A stretch of 39,732 nucleotides of DNA. It comes from a virus. Its lineage: Duplodnaviria > Heunggongvirae > Uroviricota > Caudoviricetes. A model generated the notes under the pieces. That model saw only the letters and a program-made list of their open reading frames with translations, made no database searches and was not told where the DNA came from. Position 1 is the stretch's first letter, and each line of letters opens with the position of its first letter. The stretch spans positions 1 to 39,732 of IMG/VR virus record IMGVR_UViG_3300028955_000061; one strand, given 5' to 3'. Shown here piece by piece: positions 1,532-34,867 of the stretch. The position numbers and the translations under genes are program-made.

Positions 1532-1741
1532 TTAATTTGAATACAATGCAATTCTCGAGGACTGAAGTTTCTCGCAATTAAAATTTATCAGTTTTACTTT
1601 CTGCTCTCTGGAAACGCCTGCTTCTTTTTTACCTGAGAGCATTTTTTCGCATTCTGATTTCGTTAGTTCAGATTTTGAATATCTTGTCCAGTTAGTAGGA
1701 GTGCCACCTTCCTTTTCAATAGTGGCGGTAATTTTATACAT
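1532..1741 (-). CDS. ydaC: Small Rac early protein (YdaC position), 69 aa from Met MYKITAT
   Basis: GGAGG ribosome-binding site 5 nt upstream of ATG at 1741; synteny between xis and lar; the track ORF 1532-1813 would overlap lar if started earlier. Confidence 0.55.
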   Translation of the reverse strand: MYKITATIEKEGGTPTNWTRYSKSELTKSECEKMLSGKKEAGVSREQKVKLINFNCEKLQSSRIALYSN

Positions 1742-11395: not shown

Positions 11396-11818
11396 ATGGC
11401 AAAAGTATTTACACAAGAAGAGCGGGAAAAAATTAAAGGACAGGTTCTTGAACTCGTACGCCAGAGTGGGCGCGAGACGTTACGACAACTGGAAGCTAAA
11501 ACTGGGGCAACAAGATATCTGATGAGCGTTCTGGCCAGAGAGCTGGTTGCCAGTGGCGATGTATACAATTCTGGCTACGGGTTATTCCCGTCTGAACAGG
11601 CTCGTAAAGACTGGCAAAATGCCCGCAAAAAATTATCGAGGGCAAAGCTGAAGAAACCGGTTGTGGTTGATCCGGACCTTATCTGGTCGTTACCTGACGG
11701 AGAAATACGTCGCTACGACAGTCGCCTAAACATAATCTGTCGCGAGTGCCGGAAGAGTGAAGCTATGCAGCGTGTACTGGCTTTCTATCAGGGTAATTTT
11801 CAGGAGGCGGTACTGTGA
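11396..11818 (+). CDS. Hypothetical phage protein, 140 aa
   Basis: GGAGG ribosome-binding site 5 nt before ATG (MAKVFTQEEREK...); the track ORF starts at an upstream TTG at 11381. Confidence 0.6.
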   Translation: MAKVFTQEEREKIKGQVLELVRQSGRETLRQLEAKTGATRYLMSVLARELVASGDVYNSGYGLFPSEQARKDWQNARKKLSRAKLKKPVVVDPDLIWSLPDGEIRRYDSRLNIICRECRKSEAMQRVLAFYQGNFQEAVL

Positions 11819-11875
11819 GTGAAATTAGCTATCAGGCTTCAATTACCGCTGGCATTCGCATCAAAGGAGAGGAGC

Positions 11876-12232
11876 ATGGAAATAAAACCAGAGGATGAGT
11901 TAAGCAATATCGTTTTATTTCCGGTAAAAGAGGATGACCCTCGTAATCAGGTTAATTTTCTTTATGAGCCATCGGAAAGACCATATTGTCATCACGCCTC
12001 TGTCCGGGTTGACGAAAAAGAGCGTCAGGTCCGCTGTAAAATCTGCGGTGCAGTTGTGGAGCCATTTGACTGGATGCTCTCTGTGGCGAAAAGAGAAACC
12101 AGACTGGCAGATGATGTAAGGCTCTTGCGTCAGGAGGAGCGGGAAAGGCGAAAAAATATAGAAAAGCTAATTCAGATTGAGCGTAACGCGAAAGCGCGGA
12201 TACGCAGGGCGACAAAATCCAGAACTGAATAA
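11876..12232 (+). CDS. Hypothetical protein with a Cys-x13-Cys-x2-Cys zinc-ribbon-like motif, 118 aa
   Basis: AGGAGAGGAG ribosome-binding site before ATG at 11876 (MEIKPEDEL...); basic coiled C-terminus. Confidence 0.55.
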   Translation: MEIKPEDELSNIVLFPVKEDDPRNQVNFLYEPSERPYCHHASVRVDEKERQVRCKICGAVVEPFDWMLSVAKRETRLADDVRLLRQEERERRKNIEKLIQIERNAKARIRRATKSRTE

Positions 12233-12325
12233 TTAAATTTAGCTCTGTTAAAAATTTAATCCTTAACCGGAGGGATTTCTGCACCCTCAGAACATCAGGA
12301 GGCCGCCCGAAAGGGCGGTAGTTAA

Positions 12326-12508
12326 ATGCGAAAGTTTAAAATAATTATTGAAACGGGAATAGCCGGTGGAGATTTCGAGGATGAATTCGAAGTGGATGAT
12401 GATGCGACGCCTGATGAAATACATGACGAAGCAAAAGATATTTTCTTTAACTACTGCAATTACTCATATCACGAAATAAAAGACGAAGAGGAAGAACAAA
12501 ATGGCTGA
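12326..12508 (+). CDS. Small highly acidic protein, 60 aa (Asp/Glu-rich)
   Basis: Translation MRKFKIIIETGIAGGDFEDEFEVDDDATPDEIHDEAKDIFFNYCNYSYHEIKDEEEEQNG; AGGAGG and a stem-loop lie upstream; its stop overlaps the next ORF start. Confidence 0.5.
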   Translation: MRKFKIIIETGIAGGDFEDEFEVDDDATPDEIHDEAKDIFFNYCNYSYHEIKDEEEEQNG

Positions 12509-12677
12509 TTTTGGTTCAACTAAATACAACGTCAGTTTTGAAGAATGGCATGAACTGTTAATGGACTATGCAGAGTTACGTGGTGGCAGTGCTGCTGATG
12601 CTGAAGCATGGCGTGATGATTATGAAGCAGGAAAAACTCCGGTCGAAGCATATTGTGATGAGTGGGGCGATGAATGA
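12501..12677 (+). CDS. Small acidic protein, 58 aa (MADFGSTKYNVSFEEWHELL...)
   Basis: Hand-translated; ATG overlaps the previous stop and its stop overlaps the next ATG (ATGA), indicating translational coupling; absent from the track because under 60 aa. Confidence 0.45.
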   Translation: MADFGSTKYNVSFEEWHELLMDYAELRGGSAADAEAWRDDYEAGKTPVEAYCDEWGDE

Positions 12678-12990
12678 GCGAGGTTAATTATCAGGAAGGG
12701 CATGAAACGGCGGGGCAAGCAAAAACAGTGGCATGGCGATATCGCTACGTGAAAAAAAAGGCGTTACGGACTTTCAGGGGAAGTAGTGGTCTGGTGACTG
12801 GAAATATGTACCGAAAAAAGAGGATTGTAACGACAGGCCGAACTATGAAATTCAGGCCTTATTCACTGCCCCGCCAGTCCCGGTTACATCAGAAGAACTG
12901 GTTAAAGCTGTGCACTTTTATGAACAACTAAAACGCGAAAATCCACCAGCATCCGGAAACCTGATTACAGATTCCCAGATAAGGCAATGA
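12674..12990 (+). CDS. Small ORF with a candidate -1 frameshift (or pseudogene): frame-0 ORF 12674-12931 contains two in-frame A AAA AAG heptamers; the -1 frame stays open to 12990
   Basis: Heptamers at about 12754-12760 and 12814-12820; the -1 frame after the second reads EDCNDRPNYEIQALFTAPPVPVTSEELVKAVHFYEQLKRENPPASGNLITDSQIRQ, which is more protein-like than the frame-0 tail and has no start codon of its own. Confidence 0.3.
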
Positions 12991-13160
12991 GCTACCTGGC
13001 GCAGAACGGGCTGATAAGTATGGGGAATGTTTTACGATGAATATTTAGACTAAAGAGTTTGTAACGCTATGTAAGTGATTTTTTCTGGTTTAGATATTTA
13101 TATGTCCGGCCAAATTGAGGTGTGTTTAAATGTAATTGCACATTGATTGTAGGAGGAATA

Positions 13161-13340
13161 ATGAAAAACGCATTGCAGTTTTTGTTTGTTGCGTTCTGGT
13201 TGTTCGTATCATGTATGCCCATCATCTTCACAGCAAGGTATATGGAAAAAGTTGATGTTTTGATATTAATATTTGGATATATAAATGCCCTTTTTTTAGG
13301 GGTGTTCATGGCGGTCATGTGCATTGAATACTGGCGGTAA
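13161..13340 (+). CDS. Small hydrophobic membrane protein, 59 aa, in an AT-rich islet
   Basis: AGGAGG ribosome-binding site before ATG (MKNALQFLFVAFWLFVSCMPIIF...); two predicted transmembrane helices. Confidence 0.5.
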   Translation: MKNALQFLFVAFWLFVSCMPIIFTARYMEKVDVLILIFGYINALFLGVFMAVMCIEYWR

Positions 13341-13439
13341 ATACAGCGAACGCCATTGGTTTAGTTGGATATTTACTGTGCCGGACAAAAACGGTTTGCG
13401 GGGAAATCTTAGTTAAGTAGAATGACTGCGGGTGCTTGA

Positions 13440-13600
13440 GGCTATCTGTCTCAGGCATGAACACCAAAAGGCAGATAGAGAAAAGCCCCAGTTAACATTA
13501 CGCGTCCTGCAAGACGCTTAACATTAATCTGAGGCCATATCTATGCGACACATAGAGATTAGCCTCTTACGGACCGAAAGGTCAAGGAGAAGCAGGCTAT
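13440..13600 (-). ncRNA. Expected Sok-like antisense RNA region for the hok locus (not resolved to exact ends)
   Basis: Inferred from the conserved organisation of hok/sok loci; promoter not confidently identified in the sequence. Confidence 0.3.
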
Positions 13601-13754
13601 GAAGCAGCAAAAGGCGATGTTAATCGCCCTGATCGTCATCTGTTTAACCGTCATAGTGACGGCACTGGTAACGAGGAAAGACCTCTGCGAGGTACGAATC
13701 CGAACCGGCCAGACGGAGGTCGCTGTCTTCACAGCTTACGAACCTGAGGAGTAA
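13599..13754 (+). CDS. hok: Hok/Gef-family type I toxin (HokD/RelF-like), 51 aa
   Basis: Translation MKQQKAMLIALIVICLTVIVTALVTRKDLCEVRIRTGQTEVAVFTAYEPEE has the Hok family signature; a short mok-like ORF overlaps the start; long structured leader upstream. Confidence 0.85.
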   Translation: MKQQKAMLIALIVICLTVIVTALVTRKDLCEVRIRTGQTEVAVFTAYEPEE

Positions 13755-13816
13755 GAGACCTGGCGGGGGAGAAATCCCTCGCCACCTCTGATGTGTCAGG
13801 CATCCTCAACGCACCC

Positions 13817-13850
13817 GCACTTAACCCGCTTCGGCGGGTTTTGTTTTTTC
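13817..13850 (+). terminator. Rho-independent terminator of hok mRNA (cccgcttcggcggg followed by a T-run)
   Basis: GC stem, tetraloop and TTTTGTTTTTT tail directly downstream of hok. Confidence 0.65.
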
Positions 13851-13921
13851 CTGGCATTCTGGTTTACAATTCGCACGTCAGCCTGAACACCTGACACCTG
13901 CTGCGCCAGCAGAGAAAACAG

Positions 13922-14194
13922 ATGGCGCACAAAACCAAATTTCACAATTCTGATACCGACCTTGCCATCCGGCATGAGCGGCGTTCACACGCATTTAAAA
14001 CCGACTGGTACCAACACCCACCATGTACTGAAGAACAGGCCGAATGGCTGATTCATTCTTACCGCAGGCGCGGGTTCGAGGTTAAGAAAGCTCTCAGTCT
14101 CGACTATCGGCACTGGATAATCTCTGTCAGGCTGCCTTATTCCGAACGCCCACCACGTCCGTCCCGCACTTTCCAGCAACGGATCTGGAGGTAA
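13922..14194 (+). CDS. Hypothetical protein (Qin rem-like position), 90 aa
   Basis: ORF preceding the DUF968 gene, with its stop inside that gene's ribosome-binding site; the neighbourhood resembles Qin hokD-rem-ydfU. Confidence 0.5.
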   Translation: MAHKTKFHNSDTDLAIRHERRSHAFKTDWYQHPPCTEEQAEWLIHSYRRRGFEVKKALSLDYRHWIISVRLPYSERPPRPSRTFQQRIWR

Positions 14195-14195
14195 C

Positions 14196-15245
14196 GTGCG
14201 GGTATTACTTAGACCTGTTCTGGTGCCTGAGCTTGGGCTGGTGGTCCTTAAGCCGGGCCGTGAATCCATACAGATATTTCATAATCCTCGAGTGCTGGTG
14301 GAGCCGGAACCGAAAAGCATGCGTAATCTGCCGTCCGGGGTTGTTCCTGCCGTTCGCCAGCCGCTAGTGGAAGACAAAACATTGCTGCCGTTTTTCAGTA
14401 ACGCACGGGTGATTCGTGCTGCTGGTGGTGCTGGTGCATTGTCTGACTGGCTGTTGCGCCATATTAAATCCTGCCAGTGGCCACACGGCGATTATCATCA
14501 CAGCGAAACCGTCATTCACCGTTATGGTACCGGCGCAATGGTGTTGTGCTGGCACTGCGACAACCAGCTGCGTGACCAGACATCCGAATCACTCGGGCAA
14601 CTTGCTCATCAAAACCTGTCAGCATGGATGATTGACGTCATCGGTCACGCAATAAGCGGTACGCAGGAGCGTGAATTATCTTTGGCTGAATTATCCTGGT
14701 GGGCGGTCCGCAATCAGGTGGCGGACGCGCTACCGGAAGCGGTATTACGTCGTTCGCTGGGGTTGCGTGCAGAAAAAATCCGCTCAATGTACCGTGAAAG
14801 CGACATCGTACCGGGAGAGCAGACCGCCACCAGCATACTGAAACAGCGCACAAAAAATCTTGCGCCGCTGCCTCACGCCCACCAGCAACAGAACCCACCA
14901 CAGGAAAAGACGGTGGTCAGCATTGCCGTTGATCCTGAGTCTCCGGAATCTTTCATGAAACGACCTAAACGTCGCCGCTGGGTTAACGAGAAATACACAC
15001 GCTGGGTGAAGACACAGCCGTGTGCGTGTTGTAGTAAGCCAGCCGACGATCCCCATCACCTGATTGGTCATGGTCAGGGCGGAATGGGAACAAAATCCCA
15101 CGATATTTTCACGCTACCGCTGTGTCGGGAGCATCACAACGAGCTTCATGCGGATCCGCTGGCGTTCGAAGAAAAGCATGGTTCTCAGGTTGATTTAATT
15201 TTTCGTTTTCTTGATCACGCCTTTGCAACCGGCGTGCTTGGGTAA
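14196..15245 (+). CDS. YdfU-like DUF968 protein with a C-terminal HNH-like zinc-finger nuclease motif, 349 aa
   Basis: GTG start after GGAGG; C-terminal CACC...HHLIGHG...CREHHNELH motif; same length as recalled Qin YdfU. Confidence 0.7.
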   Translation: MRVLLRPVLVPELGLVVLKPGRESIQIFHNPRVLVEPEPKSMRNLPSGVVPAVRQPLVEDKTLLPFFSNARVIRAAGGAGALSDWLLRHIKSCQWPHGDYHHSETVIHRYGTGAMVLCWHCDNQLRDQTSESLGQLAHQNLSAWMIDVIGHAISGTQERELSLAELSWWAVRNQVADALPEAVLRRSLGLRAEKIRSMYRESDIVPGEQTATSILKQRTKNLAPLPHAHQQQNPPQEKTVVSIAVDPESPESFMKRPKRRRWVNEKYTRWVKTQPCACCSKPADDPHHLIGHGQGGMGTKSHDIFTLPLCREHHNELHADPLAFEEKHGSQVDLIFRFLDHAFATGVLG

Positions 15246-33932: not shown

Positions 33933-34394
33933 ATGAGGTTATGGATGTTTATTCTTAATCAGAAAATTATCATTGGTGGAGAACGCTGGTTTACGCCAAT
34001 GAAGGACTTAAAACCTGTAGACGGGTTAAAACTGTTGGTGGCAAGCAGCGATAACGATCAGTATCGCTCCCGTAATGCATTAATCCGTCGCCACATTGAG
34101 AAAATGGATGCCAGTTTGCACGTCGGAACGAAGGAGTTTGATATTTCAAAGGTTTCCGAGGTGGATTCTGTTGATGATTTACTCATTGATAATGCCGCTC
34201 GTTATCTGCTGAAAGACTGGAAAGGGGTTGGTGAACTGGTTAATGGTGTTGAGGTTGCACTGGAATATACGGCAGAACGAGGGATCGCGCTGCTTAAGCA
34301 GAATCCAGAGTTGTACTGGCAGATCCTTGCAGAAGCAGCCAGCATCGCCCAGGGTAAAGAGCAGCAGAAGCAGGATACGATAAAAAAGCCATAG
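33933..34394 (+). CDS. Tail assembly chaperone G-like, 153 aa (alternative start at Met5 with a GAGG ribosome-binding site)
   Basis: Position before the tape measure gene; ends two codons after an A AAA AAG slippery heptamer. Confidence 0.7.
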   Translation: MRLWMFILNQKIIIGGERWFTPMKDLKPVDGLKLLVASSDNDQYRSRNALIRRHIEKMDASLHVGTKEFDISKVSEVDSVDDLLIDNAARYLLKDWKGVGELVNGVEVALEYTAERGIALLKQNPELYWQILAEAASIAQGKEQQKQDTIKKP

Positions 34395-34702
34395 CTGCCC
34401 AGCGGTGGTTATCGGAGTTCGGGGGAGAAAGGGGGGAAAAGGCAAGATGGAAGCGAGAAAAACTCAGGTTGCCACCGATACCGGAACCAGAAATAGACCC
34501 GGTGCTTAAGGAGTTGTTGTACGCCTATTCGGTAATATCCCGTGCCCGACGTTATGCTGGAATGGCTGGGGTGCCTTTGCCTTTATCTCTGACAGAGATA
34601 AATGAATATTTAGCCACTCATCCGGTATTGATTGAGCGCGATGAATTTGAAGCAGTGATCTTTGCACTGGATGACCAGTATTTTCAGGAGCAGTGTGTGT
34701 AG
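33933..34702 (+). CDS. Tail assembly chaperone GT-like fusion made by programmed -1 frameshift at A AAA AAG (about 34382-34388)
   Basis: The -1 frame is open from the slip site to 34702, with no plausible independent start; canonical arrangement before a tape measure gene. Confidence 0.6.
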
Positions 34703-34823
34703 TTGTTAATTACGTACACTCTGTTACAGAGATGTGATGGTGTCTTTAATTAAATCGATGATGCTCCTGGAGAAAAGCATTGCGTGGCCTCGTAATCGCT
34801 ATATCTACTATTATGTCGCCTGA

Positions 34824-34848
34824 AACCCACTTCGCGGTGGGTTTTTTG
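34824..34848 (+). terminator. Terminator-like hairpin (aacccac-ttcgcg-gtgggtt followed by TTTTGTTG) between the chaperone and tape measure genes
   Basis: 7-bp stem and T-rich tail. Confidence 0.45.
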
Positions 34849-34867
34849 TTGTCAGGAGTTTTAATAA

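What the first reader, a model, noticed from the sequence alone, without database searches (positions are those of the whole stretch)
12240..12990. Chain of translationally coupled small ORFs, including a highly acidic 60-aa protein and an ORF with two in-frame A AAA AAG slippery heptamers
Three small ORFs are linked by overlapping stop and start codons. The first product is extremely Asp/Glu-rich, which is typical of DNA-mimic anti-restriction or anti-defence proteins. The third ORF carries two canonical -1 slippery heptamers in the zero frame, at about 12754-12760 and 12814-12820. After the second, the -1 frame stays open to 12990 with a more protein-like translation than the zero-frame tail, and has no start codon of its own. 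This is either programmed frameshifting producing two C-terminal variants or a recent frameshift pseudogene.
Basis: partly seen in the sequence, partly recalled or inferred. Interest (0 to 1): 0.55.

Follow-up and report, generated by a model that had tools for sequence, protein, structure and literature searches.

The report
Decayed phage gene, not programmed frameshifting
The ORF with two "slippery" sites is a broken copy of an ordinary phage gene in the E. coli Rac prophage, already flagged as a pseudogene in RefSeq. The two small acidic genes before it are intact, conserved phage genes of unknown function.

Summary
The sequence-level observations all hold: three ORFs joined by overlapping stop and start codons, a 60-aa protein that is 33% Asp/Glu, two in-frame A_AAA_AAG heptamers, and an open -1 frame to 12990.

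The frameshifting interpretation fails. Intact homologues are single ORFs of 104, 119 or 171 aa. They have six A's where the window has eight, a sense codon where the window has TAG (12784-6), and ACA AAA G where the window has the second heptamer. The "-1 frame" is the ancestral reading frame.

The window copy (12674-13040) carries three lesions:
- a +2 insertion in the A-run;
- a nonsense codon;
- a deletion of about 53 codons that shifts the frame again.

On the same TAG background in complete E. coli genomes, the A-run is 6 (487 records), 7 (75) or 8 (353). NCBI's annotation pipeline (PGAP) already calls the locus "frameshifted; internal stop".

ORF1 belongs to Pfam DUF7167, a phage family that is acidic throughout. 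Its predicted fold is a beta-hairpin plus a helix, with no significant similarity to any solved structure. The DNA-mimic idea is a lead only.

The same window has a textbook tail-chaperone -1 frameshift site at 34382-34388.

The parts
12297..12318 (+). Perfect Shine-Dalgarno sequence AGGAGG (12297-12302) abutting a 6-bp G+C hairpin with a GAAA loop (12303-12318). Seven unpaired nt follow before the ORF1 ATG. This may be a split ribosome-binding site in which the hairpin brings the SD and the start codon together.
   Evidence: Sequence. The fold is -18.1 kcal/mol with z -2.2. The SD-hairpin-ATG block stays with ORF1 in 7 loci whose upstream sequence is different, and 4 of the 5 single-base variants in the stem's 5' arm are C to T changes that keep G-U pairs. 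The function is inferred, not shown.
12326..12508 (+). ORF1: intact 60-aa acidic protein of Pfam family DUF7167 (RefSeq WP_001224662.1).
   Evidence: Pfam PF23768 scores 55.1 bits against a cut-off of 24.4. phrog_1997 matches at E 9e-31. There are 99 cluster representatives at E<=1e-3 among 1.84 billion. The AF2 model has pLDDT 87.8, with strands 2-8 and 17-23 and a helix 29-43. All 44 aligned family members have net charge -7 to -18.
12501..12677 (+). ORF2: intact 58-aa acidic protein (WP_000753060.1). Its start overlaps the ORF1 stop by 8 nt.
   Evidence: phrog_519 matches at E 4.5e-23, on profile positions 76-137 of 143. The ORF is 58 aa in 74 of 76 related loci, with the identical ATGGCTGA junction. 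A GAGG motif lies 9 nt upstream of the ATG.
12674..13040 (+). ORF3: pseudogene of a phrog_660 family gene whose full-length form is 171 aa. The remains lie in three reading frames: residues 1-28 at 12674-12757, residues 27-91 at 12754-12948, and residues 145-171 at 12957-13037 with the stop at 13038-13040. Residues 92-144 are deleted.
   Evidence: tblastn of the 171-aa L015 protein against the window. phrog_660 matches the -1-frame piece at E 1.2e-16 and the third-frame piece at E 9e-7; the zero-frame tail matches nothing. PGAP calls 12674-12990 'frameshifted; internal stop'.
12752..12759 (+). A8 homopolymer. It is a +2 expansion of the A6 run (GTG AAA AAA GGC) seen in intact homologues, and it creates the first A_AAA_AAG heptamer (12754-12760).
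   Evidence: Alignment and locus survey. In complete E. coli genomes on the TAG background the run is A6 in 487 records, A7 in 75 and A8 in 353.
12784..12786 (+). TAG nonsense codon in the ancestral frame. Intact homologues have CAG, CCG or CTG at this position.
   Evidence: A -1 shift at the first heptamer would terminate here after 8 codons, giving a 37-aa product.
12814..12820 (+). Second A_AAA_AAG heptamer (CCG AAA AAA GAG in the ancestral frame). In the sequences examined it occurs only in copies that also carry a frameshift or stop lesion; intact homologues have CCG ACA AAA GAG.
   Evidence: The 60 nt downstream have no above-chance RNA structure, z -0.67.
12674..12931 (+). The 85-aa zero-frame ORF: 28 native residues followed by 57 out-of-frame residues, pI 11.1. 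This is the default translation product of the broken gene.
   Evidence: Only residues 2-31 match phrog_660, at E 0.006. Related broken alleles give 40, 70 or 76 aa instead.

Best explanation
Region 12240-13040 is a three-gene accessory cassette in the early-right operon of a full-length Rac prophage of E. coli. It lies between the replication genes and the hok/sok locus.

ORF1 (DUF7167, 60 aa) and ORF2 (phrog_519, 58 aa) are intact, conserved, acidic small phage proteins. They are probably translated in series through overlapping stop and start codons.

ORF3 is a dead copy of a phrog_660 gene. Three changes destroyed a 171-aa reading frame: a 2-nt expansion of an A6 run to A8, a sense-to-TAG change 8 codons later, and an internal deletion of about 53 codons that changes the frame again.

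The two A_AAA_AAG heptamers are by-products of this decay, and the open '-1 frame' is the ancestral frame. Ribosomes will mostly make an 85-aa product (28 native plus 57 nonsense residues).

Spontaneous -1 slippage at an unstimulated heptamer is expected at roughly 0.5% or less. At site 1 it yields a 37-aa product. At site 2 it yields a 105-aa chimera that lacks the conserved W-x-GDWKYVP segment.

Shown here: the anatomy, the homology in three frames, the intact homologues and the allele polymorphism. Inferred: the translation outcomes, the coupling, and any function of ORF1 and ORF2.
For: 1. Intact single-ORF homologues exist with the same ORF1-ORF2 neighbours.
- The 104-aa form is WP_001529162.1. 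The 119-aa form is in phage vB_EcoS-689R5.
- In IMG/VR loci with an identical ORF1, the 171-aa form occurs in 22 loci, the 104-aa form in 8 and the 119-aa form in 3.
- All of them have A6, a sense codon at the TAG site and no second heptamer.

2. Family homology follows the frame changes.
- The intact protein matches phrog_660 over residues 2-99 at E 4e-31, while the window's zero-frame product matches only residues 2-31.
- The -1-frame piece matches at E 1e-16, the third-frame piece at E 9e-7, and the zero-frame tail matches nothing.

3. The frame relationship is not conserved. On the same TAG and AAAAAAG background the A-run is 6, 7 or 8 in 487, 75 and 353 complete-genome records. Further 1-nt deletions and a 55-nt indel occur in other alleles.

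4. No above-chance RNA structure follows either heptamer, z -0.14 and -0.67. Heptamers without stimulators shift at no more than about 10 times a 0.055% background (PMC4066793).

5. The allele is not a sequencing error. It is identical in 353 complete genomes, 26 IMG/VR loci and an induced phage isolate.

6. PGAP independently annotates the locus as a pseudogene, 'frameshifted; internal stop'.

7. The two overlap junctions are each conserved in 74 of 76 loci. Distant DUF7167 genes also overlap or abut their neighbours, by 0 to 8 nt.
Against: - In E. coli, A_AAA_AAG is intrinsically the most shift-prone class of heptamer, so a trace of trans-frame product is likely. Nothing here measures it.
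- Absence of a predicted downstream structure is weak evidence. The window's own, almost certainly genuine, tail-chaperone frameshift site also lacks one, z +0.62.
- The A8 frame bypasses the TAG, and the second heptamer could return ribosomes to the ancestral frame. A Shigella allele (L009) reaches that same frame through a different set of indels. This coincidence was not formally tested for selection.
- The 104-aa 'intact' form used as reference may itself be a shortened derivative of the 171-aa form.
Confidence: 0.93

Rival explanations
1. Programmed -1 ribosomal frameshifting at the second A_AAA_AAG (12814-12820) makes two C-terminal variants of ORF3: an 85-aa zero-frame product and a 105-aa trans-frame product.
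For: A canonical heptamer sits in the zero frame. The -1 frame is open for 56 codons, has no ATG and is protein-like. The A8 frame happens to skip the TAG at 12784-6.
Against: - The heptamer is absent from every intact homologue examined, which read ACA AAA G.
- Homologues are single ORFs.
- The upstream frame varies between alleles, with A6, A7 and A8.
- The zero-frame tail has no homologues.
- There is no stimulatory structure.
- The chimera would lack 19 conserved residues.
Confidence: 0.02
2. The A-run is a phase-variable (contingency) tract that switches ORF3 on and off by slipped-strand mutation or transcriptional slippage.
For: The run length is polymorphic, 6, 7 or 8, among otherwise near-identical alleles. 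Three loci (L017, L033, L050) have A8 with TGG instead of TAG, so the run is their only lesion in the part of the gene that aligns with the other broken alleles (about the first 270 nt).
Against: - In the window's lineage no run length restores the protein, because the TAG and the downstream deletion remain.
- Tracts of 6-8 are short for contingency loci (general knowledge).
- Intact homologues uniformly have A6.
- No A6 or A9 allele with TGG was seen in the sample.
Confidence: 0.03
3. The 85-aa zero-frame product is a new functional basic protein (pI 11) created by the frameshift.
For: It is an uninterrupted 85-codon ORF, is coupled to ORF2, and is identical in hundreds of genomes.
Against: - That identity reflects recent common descent of the prophage.
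- Sister alleles encode 40, 70 or 76 aa instead.
- The tail matches no PHROG or Pfam family.
Confidence: 0.02
4. This concerns ORF1, and possibly ORF2, not the frameshift. ORF1 is a DNA-mimic or other charge-mimic inhibitor of a host DNA-binding defence or repair enzyme, that is, an anti-restriction or anti-defence protein.
For: - It is small and very acidic (pI 4.05, net -15), and the acidity is conserved across the whole DUF7167 family, net -7 to -18 in 44 of 44 members.
- It lies in an early accessory region of a temperate phage.
- The family occurs in unrelated phages of E. coli, Lactococcus, Stenotrophomonas and Streptomyces.
- Small size and acidity are recognised hallmarks of mimics such as T7 gp5.9, and mimic folds are diverse (PMC9836394).
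- phrog_519, ORF2's family, has been flagged as a candidate Acr by a machine-learning predictor only (PMC9409062).
Against: - Many small phage early proteins are acidic without being mimics.
- No experiment exists; DUF7167 appears in no paper of the library.
Confidence: 0.15

Closest known systems
Homopolymer-frameshift and nonsense pseudogenes in cryptic or defective lambdoid prophages of E. coli, as flagged by NCBI PGAP ('frameshifted; internal stop')
   Same: Indel in a poly-A run, premature stop, internal deletion, intact orthologues elsewhere, and polymorphic lesions among strains. RefSeq already annotates this locus that way.
   Different: Nothing material. The only curiosity is that the lesions happen to create two canonical slippery heptamers.
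dnaX-type -1 programmed frameshifting on A_AAA_AAG in E. coli
   Same: Identical heptamer in the zero frame, and a host whose tRNA-Lys makes it shift-prone (PMC4066793).
   Different: dnaX has an upstream internal Shine-Dalgarno sequence and a downstream stem-loop, and the site is conserved among orthologues. Here there is no above-chance downstream structure, no conservation, and the -1 frame is simply the ancestral frame.
Tail assembly chaperone G/GT -1 frameshift of lambdoid phages
   Same: The same window has such a site. ORF 33933-34394 has an in-frame A_AAA_AAG at 34382-34388, 4 nt before its stop, and a -1 frame open for about 100 codons, between the tail tube and tape measure genes.
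   Different: That site has the conserved syntenic position and the end-of-ORF geometry of the G/GT system. The ORF3 heptamers have neither.
T7 gp5.9 and other small acidic DNA mimics (Ocr, Gam)
   Same: ORF1 resembles gp5.9 in its small size and in its very low pI, 4.05 against 4.0 (PMC9836394).
   Different: gp5.9 is a dimeric parallel coiled coil. The ORF1 model is a beta-hairpin plus one helix with an acidic tail. There is no detectable homology or fold match, and no target is known.
Split ribosome-binding sites of phage T4 genes 38 and 25, with a hairpin between the SD and the AUG (recalled from general knowledge, not checked in the library)
   Same: AGGAGG is followed by a stable 6-bp hairpin with a GAAA loop, then 7 nt and the ORF1 ATG.
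   Different: Untested here. Only wobble-preserving substitutions are seen, with no compensatory double changes.

Membership tests
Programmed -1 ribosomal frameshift site | X_XXY_YYZ heptamer in the zero frame | tested here: met
   A_AAA_AAG at 12754-60 and at 12814-20, both in the ORF3 frame.
Programmed -1 ribosomal frameshift site | The heptamer and the two-frame arrangement are conserved in homologues | tested here: not met
   Every intact homologue examined is a single ORF with GTG AAA AAA GGC and CCG ACA AAA GAG. The A-run is 6, 7 or 8 on the broken background.
Programmed -1 ribosomal frameshift site | Stimulatory element: a downstream stem-loop or pseudoknot at 5-9 nt, or an upstream SD-like sequence | tested here: not met
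   The 60 nt downstream of each site fold no better than shuffles, z -0.14 and -0.67. No AGGAGG-like sequence was seen by eye in the sequence just upstream. Caveat: the window's likely genuine tail-chaperone site also lacks a predicted structure.
Programmed -1 ribosomal frameshift site | A trans-frame protein is made at a regulated ratio | not testable with these tools
   This needs ribosome profiling, mass spectrometry or a dual reporter.
Frameshift/nonsense pseudogene | Close homologues with one uninterrupted ORF | tested here: met
   Forms of 104, 119 and 171 aa.
Frameshift/nonsense pseudogene | Protein-family homology continues across the lesion in another frame | tested here: met
   tblastn maps pieces in three frames. 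phrog_660 matches the -1-frame and third-frame pieces but not the zero-frame tail.
Frameshift/nonsense pseudogene | Multiple or polymorphic disabling lesions | tested here: met
   The +2 A-run expansion, the TAG and the deletion of about 53 codons in the window. Extra 1-nt deletions and a 55-nt indel occur in sister alleles.
Pfam DUF7167 (PF23768) | Score above the Pfam gathering threshold over the whole domain | tested here: met
   55.1 bits against 24.4, with residues 2-53 on profile positions 1-60.
DNA-mimic anti-restriction proteins (Ocr, ArdA, gp5.9, Gam) | Small, strongly negative surface charge | tested here: met
   33% D+E, net -15, pI 4.05. The property holds across the family.
DNA-mimic anti-restriction proteins (Ocr, ArdA, gp5.9, Gam) | Homology or fold similarity to a known mimic | tested here: not met
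DNA-mimic anti-restriction proteins (Ocr, ArdA, gp5.9, Gam) | Binds and inhibits a DNA-binding enzyme | not testable with these tools
   Requires expression, plaque assays and pull-downs.
Translationally coupled gene chain | Stop and start codons overlap, and the overlap is conserved | tested here: met
   The ATGGCTGA and ATGA junctions are each present in 74 of 76 related loci. Distant DUF7167 genes overlap or abut their neighbours by 0 to 8 nt.
Translationally coupled gene chain | Downstream translation depends on upstream translation | not testable with these tools
   Needs reporter fusions with upstream stop mutants.

The most novel reading that the evidence does not exclude
The intact pair, ORF1 (DUF7167) and ORF2 (phrog_519), is an uncharacterised charge-mimic module that inhibits a host DNA-binding defence or repair enzyme. 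Both proteins are small, strongly acidic and translationally coupled, and the DUF7167 family is spread across phages of Proteobacteria, Firmicutes and Actinobacteria. A far less likely second reading is that the A8 frame plus the second heptamer partially rescues the broken ORF3 by recoding.
Probability: 0.15. Interest if true: 0.5.

Novelty: already known. Interest (0 to 1): 0.12.

Why it matters
As it stands, it matters little. It is a useful negative example: canonical slippery heptamers and an open -1 frame can arise purely from homopolymer expansion in a decaying gene, and only comparison with homologues separates this from recoding.

The same window offers the contrast. It has an unannotated, textbook tail-chaperone -1 site on the same heptamer.

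The only part with upside is DUF7167. It is a widespread, uniformly acidic phage family of about 56 aa with a confident predicted fold and no known function, and it would be a cheap candidate for anti-defence screening.

Tried and rejected
- **Wrong context record.** I first took the genomic context from strain MS6198 (L013). A blast then showed that this strain matches the window only over 11397-14946, so the context was discarded. The window is a full-length Rac prophage, 99.9% identical over its first 25 kb to NZ_CP123059.
- **Sequencing error in the A8 run.** Rejected. The allele is exact in 353 complete genomes, 26 IMG/VR loci and a phage isolate.
- **Rescue by -1 shift at heptamer 1, or by transcriptional slippage to A9.** Rejected. 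Both lead into the TAG at 12784-6.
- **Stimulatory RNA structure.** None above chance.
- **Known RNA families in the region.** None. Rfam finds only sok at 13430-13601 and RalA at 1557-1735.
- **Own promoter or terminator.** None between 11800 and 13700 on the + strand.
- **Defence-system models (PADLOC) and NCBIfam.** No hits for any of the proteins tested.
- **Literature.** No paper mentions DUF7167 or the RefSeq accessions.
- **Alignment-based locus search with the diverse DUF7167 alignment.** It failed because no stretch was conserved enough.
- **Species-representative genome scan for ORF3.** It returned only 4 loci, two of them from gut metagenome bins labelled Segatella and Collinsella, which are probably mis-binned E. 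coli phage contigs.

Full report
**Observation**

The region reads as the first-stage reader described it.
- ORF1 (12326-12508, 60 aa), ORF2 (12501-12677, 58 aa) and ORF3 (12674-12931, 85 aa in the zero frame) are linked by an 8-nt ATGGCTGA overlap and a 4-nt ATGA overlap.
- ORF1 has 20 Asp/Glu in 60 residues, net charge about -15 and pI 4.05. It is the most acidic of the 132 ATG-started ORFs of at least 50 aa in the window, and ORF2 is second.
- Two A_AAA_AAG heptamers lie in the ORF3 zero frame. The first is at 12754-12760, inside an A8 run at 12752-12759. The second is at 12814-12820.
- The -1 frame is open from 12787 to the stop at 12988-12990 and has no ATG.
- The heptamer itself is not enriched in the window: 17 sites against 13.5 expected.

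**Context**

I first borrowed the context from a strain that turned out to match only 11397-14946 and discarded it. The window is a full-length Rac prophage. Its first 25 kb are 99.9% identical to E. coli M25631H.

The gene order is intR, xisR, rcbA, ralR, recT, recE, racC, kilR, sieB, racR, ydaS, ydaT, ydaU, ydaV, DUF1627, DUF977 and a zinc-ribbon-like gene. The three ORFs follow. After them come sok/hokD, DUF968, rusA and a Q-like antiterminator, then lysis genes, trkG and the morphogenesis genes.

No promoter-like or terminator-like site of its own lies on the + strand between 11800 and 13700. The cassette is therefore read as part of the early-right transcript. The position corresponds to lambda's nin region; that comparison rests on my own knowledge.

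**ORF3 is a pseudogene**

PGAP annotates 12674-12990 as 'frameshifted; internal stop' in the identical RefSeq records.

Intact homologues exist with the same two upstream genes:
- a 104-aa protein, WP_001529162.1;
- a 119-aa protein in phage vB_EcoS-689R5;
- among 80 IMG/VR loci whose ORF1 is 100% identical to the window's, 22 with a 171-aa ORF, 8 with 104 aa and 3 with 119 aa.

All of these read GTG AAA AAA GGC (or GAC), so they have six A's. They have a sense codon (CAG, CCG or CTG) where the window has TAG, and CCG ACA AAA GAG where the window has CCG AAA AAA GAG. The first heptamer therefore exists only because the A-run gained two bases. The second comes from a single ACA to AAA change, and in the sequences examined it was found only in copies that also carry a frameshift or stop lesion.

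The '-1 frame' is the ancestral frame.
- The intact protein matches phrog_660 over residues 2-99 at E 4e-31. The window's zero-frame product matches only residues 2-31, at E 0.006.
- The window's -1-frame segment 12787-12987 matches phrog_660 at E 1e-16. The zero-frame tail 12821-12928 matches nothing.

A tblastn search with the 171-aa form shows the full damage.
- Residues 1-28 lie at 12674-12757.
- Residues 27-91 lie at 12754-12948 in the next frame, with the TAG at 12784-12786.
- Residues 92-144 are missing.
- Residues 145-171 lie at 12957-13037 in the third frame, ending at 13038-13040. That last piece matches the end of phrog_660 at E 9e-7.

The pseudogene therefore runs to 13040, beyond the finding's coordinates, and carries three lesions.

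**Population test**

I ran exact-match searches with queries of about 95 nt that span both A-runs and the TAG, in 5,426 complete E. coli genomes.

| Allele | Records |
|---|---|
| A6 + TAG | 487 |
| A7 + TAG | 75 |
| A8 + TAG (the window's allele) | 353 |
| Exact 104-aa intact type | 87 |

The relationship between the upstream and downstream frames is thus free to vary on one background, which is the opposite of a programmed site.

Sister alleles add further damage: 1-nt deletions in L009 and L023, and a 55-nt indel with extra stops in E. coli W and VL40. The A8 allele cannot be a sequencing artefact. It is identical in hundreds of finished genomes, 26 viral contigs and an induced phage isolate.

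**What ribosomes can make from the window allele (inference from the sequence)**

- Standard decoding gives 85 aa, of which 28 are native, with pI 11.
- A -1 slip at site 1 gives 29 + 8 = 37 aa and ends at the TAG. Transcriptional slippage to A9 reaches the same frame and ends at the same TAG.
- A -1 slip at site 2 gives 49 + 56 = 105 aa. In that product, 19 conserved residues (GVTDFQ..W.GDWKYVPT) are replaced by 20 out-of-frame ones.

Neither site is followed by RNA structure above shuffled controls, z -0.14 and -0.67. In E. coli, heptamers without stimulators shift at no more than about ten times a 0.055% background (PMC4066793).

One caveat applies. The window's likely genuine tail-chaperone site also lacks a predicted structure. 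The comparative evidence, not the folding, is what decides the case.

**ORF1 and ORF2**

ORF1 is a member of Pfam DUF7167, scoring 55.1 bits against a cut-off of 24.4, and of phrog_1997.
- An exhaustive HMMER scan of 1.84 billion cluster representatives found 99 relatives at E<=1e-3. Most are 50-60 aa and 35-50% identical.
- The conserved pattern is M-(R/K)K-hydrophobic strand-E-TG..G-...-E(V/I)-DDAT-(E/D)EI(E/D)-...-F-...-(Y/W).
- All 44 aligned members are acidic, with net charge -7 to -18 and pI 4.53 or lower.
- AlphaFold2 on that alignment gives a confident model, pLDDT 87.8: a beta-hairpin (2-8, 17-23), a helix (29-43) and a less ordered acidic tail.
- In the viral predicted-structure library it matches only uncharacterised proteins, from phages of E. 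coli (phAPEC8), Lactococcus, Stenotrophomonas and Streptomyces.
- No paper in the library mentions DUF7167.

ORF2 matches the C-terminal half of phrog_519 at E 4.5e-23. That family has only been flagged as a candidate anti-CRISPR by a machine-learning predictor (PMC9409062).

Small size and acidity are recognised hallmarks of DNA mimics such as T7 gp5.9 (pI 4.0), and mimic folds are diverse (PMC9836394). I put it at about 0.15.

The coupling anatomy is conserved. Both junctions are identical in 74 of 76 related loci. Two distant DUF7167 genes, in L094 and L095, overlap or abut their neighbours by 0 to 8 nt.

**Comparison with known systems**

- The site shares only the heptamer with dnaX-type frameshifting. 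It fails the conservation and stimulator criteria.
- It meets every criterion of a homopolymer-frameshift and nonsense pseudogene, and RefSeq already labels it so.
- ORF1 is a bona fide DUF7167 member. It resembles small acidic mimics in composition only.

**Verdict**

The interesting interpretation, programmed frameshifting, is not supported. The feature is already known and interest is low, at 0.12. The residual upside lies in the uncharacterised acidic DUF7167/phrog_519 pair.

Noticed in passing
window 33933-34700 (+): This is probably the real programmed -1 frameshift of the window. The ORF between the tail tube and tape-measure genes (33933-34394; PGAP calls 34035-34394 ydaY) has an in-frame A_AAA_AAG at 34382-34388, 4 nt before its TAG. 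The -1 frame stays open for about 100 more codons (KKAIAAQRWLSEFGG...QEQCV). PGAP leaves 34395-34867 unannotated. This is the geometry of the lambda G/GT tail-chaperone frameshift. The 60 nt downstream show no above-chance structure (z +0.62).
   Followed up: partly
window 12297-12328 (+): A perfect AGGAGG abuts a 6-bp GC hairpin with a GAAA tetraloop, then 7 nt and the ORF1 ATG. ORF1 has no good SD at normal spacing, so the hairpin may bring the SD and the ATG together, as reported for T4 genes 38 and 25 (from memory). The block stays with ORF1 when the upstream sequence is replaced (7 loci). Four of the five single-base variants in the stem's 5' arm are C to T changes that keep G-U pairs.
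   Followed up: partly
L017, L033, L050 (IMG/VR), ORF3 at locus position about 3349: A sister allele has the A8 run but TGG instead of TAG, and the longer C-terminal module. In the part of the gene that aligns with the other broken alleles (about the first 270 nt), the +2 run is its only lesion, so a single -1 slip at the first heptamer would restore the ancestral frame there. If recoding or phase variation is relevant anywhere in this gene family, it would be in that allele, not in the window's.
   Followed up: no
L009 (Shigella flexneri CP182557), ORF3 at 2501: This allele has A6 followed by a single G (GTGAAAAAAGCG). It therefore reaches the same shifted frame as the window's A8 allele, differing from it by exactly 3 nt at this site, and it also bypasses the TAG. 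It may derive from A8 by an in-frame AAG loss or be an independent 1-nt deletion. This was not resolved.
   Followed up: no
window 1557-1735 (+) and 13430-13601 (+): Rfam finds the RalA antitoxin sRNA opposite ralR/rcbA (225.7 bits) and the sok antisense RNA upstream of hokD (106.7 bits). Both are expected in Rac-type prophages.
   Followed up: no
window 11876-12232 (+) and L094 2229-2501: The gene just upstream of DUF7167 is a small zinc-ribbon-like protein. This holds in the window (a weak Zn_Ribbon_TF hit with a CxxC...CxxC pattern, phrog_1621) and in a distant high-GC phage contig (CPHCGG...CCDCG, overlapping the DUF7167 start by 4 nt). This may be a recurrent pairing.
   Followed up: no
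L006, L007 (genome contigs) and phage record PP818812.1: Short contigs binned as Segatella copri and Collinsella sp. MAGs, and a record named Actinobacillus phage vB_Apl-pPE4, carry an ORF3 homologue 79-80% identical to the E. coli gene. These are probably mis-binned or mis-attributed E. coli phage DNA.
   Followed up: no
L002 (E. coli W) 1167-1349 and L003 (VL40) 1350-1499: In the A6/A7+TAG lineage with the 55-nt indel, the neighbours also decay. ORF1 carries an internal stop in strain W, and ORF2 is shortened to 150 nt in VL40. In some prophage lineages the whole cassette is therefore dispensable.
   Followed up: no
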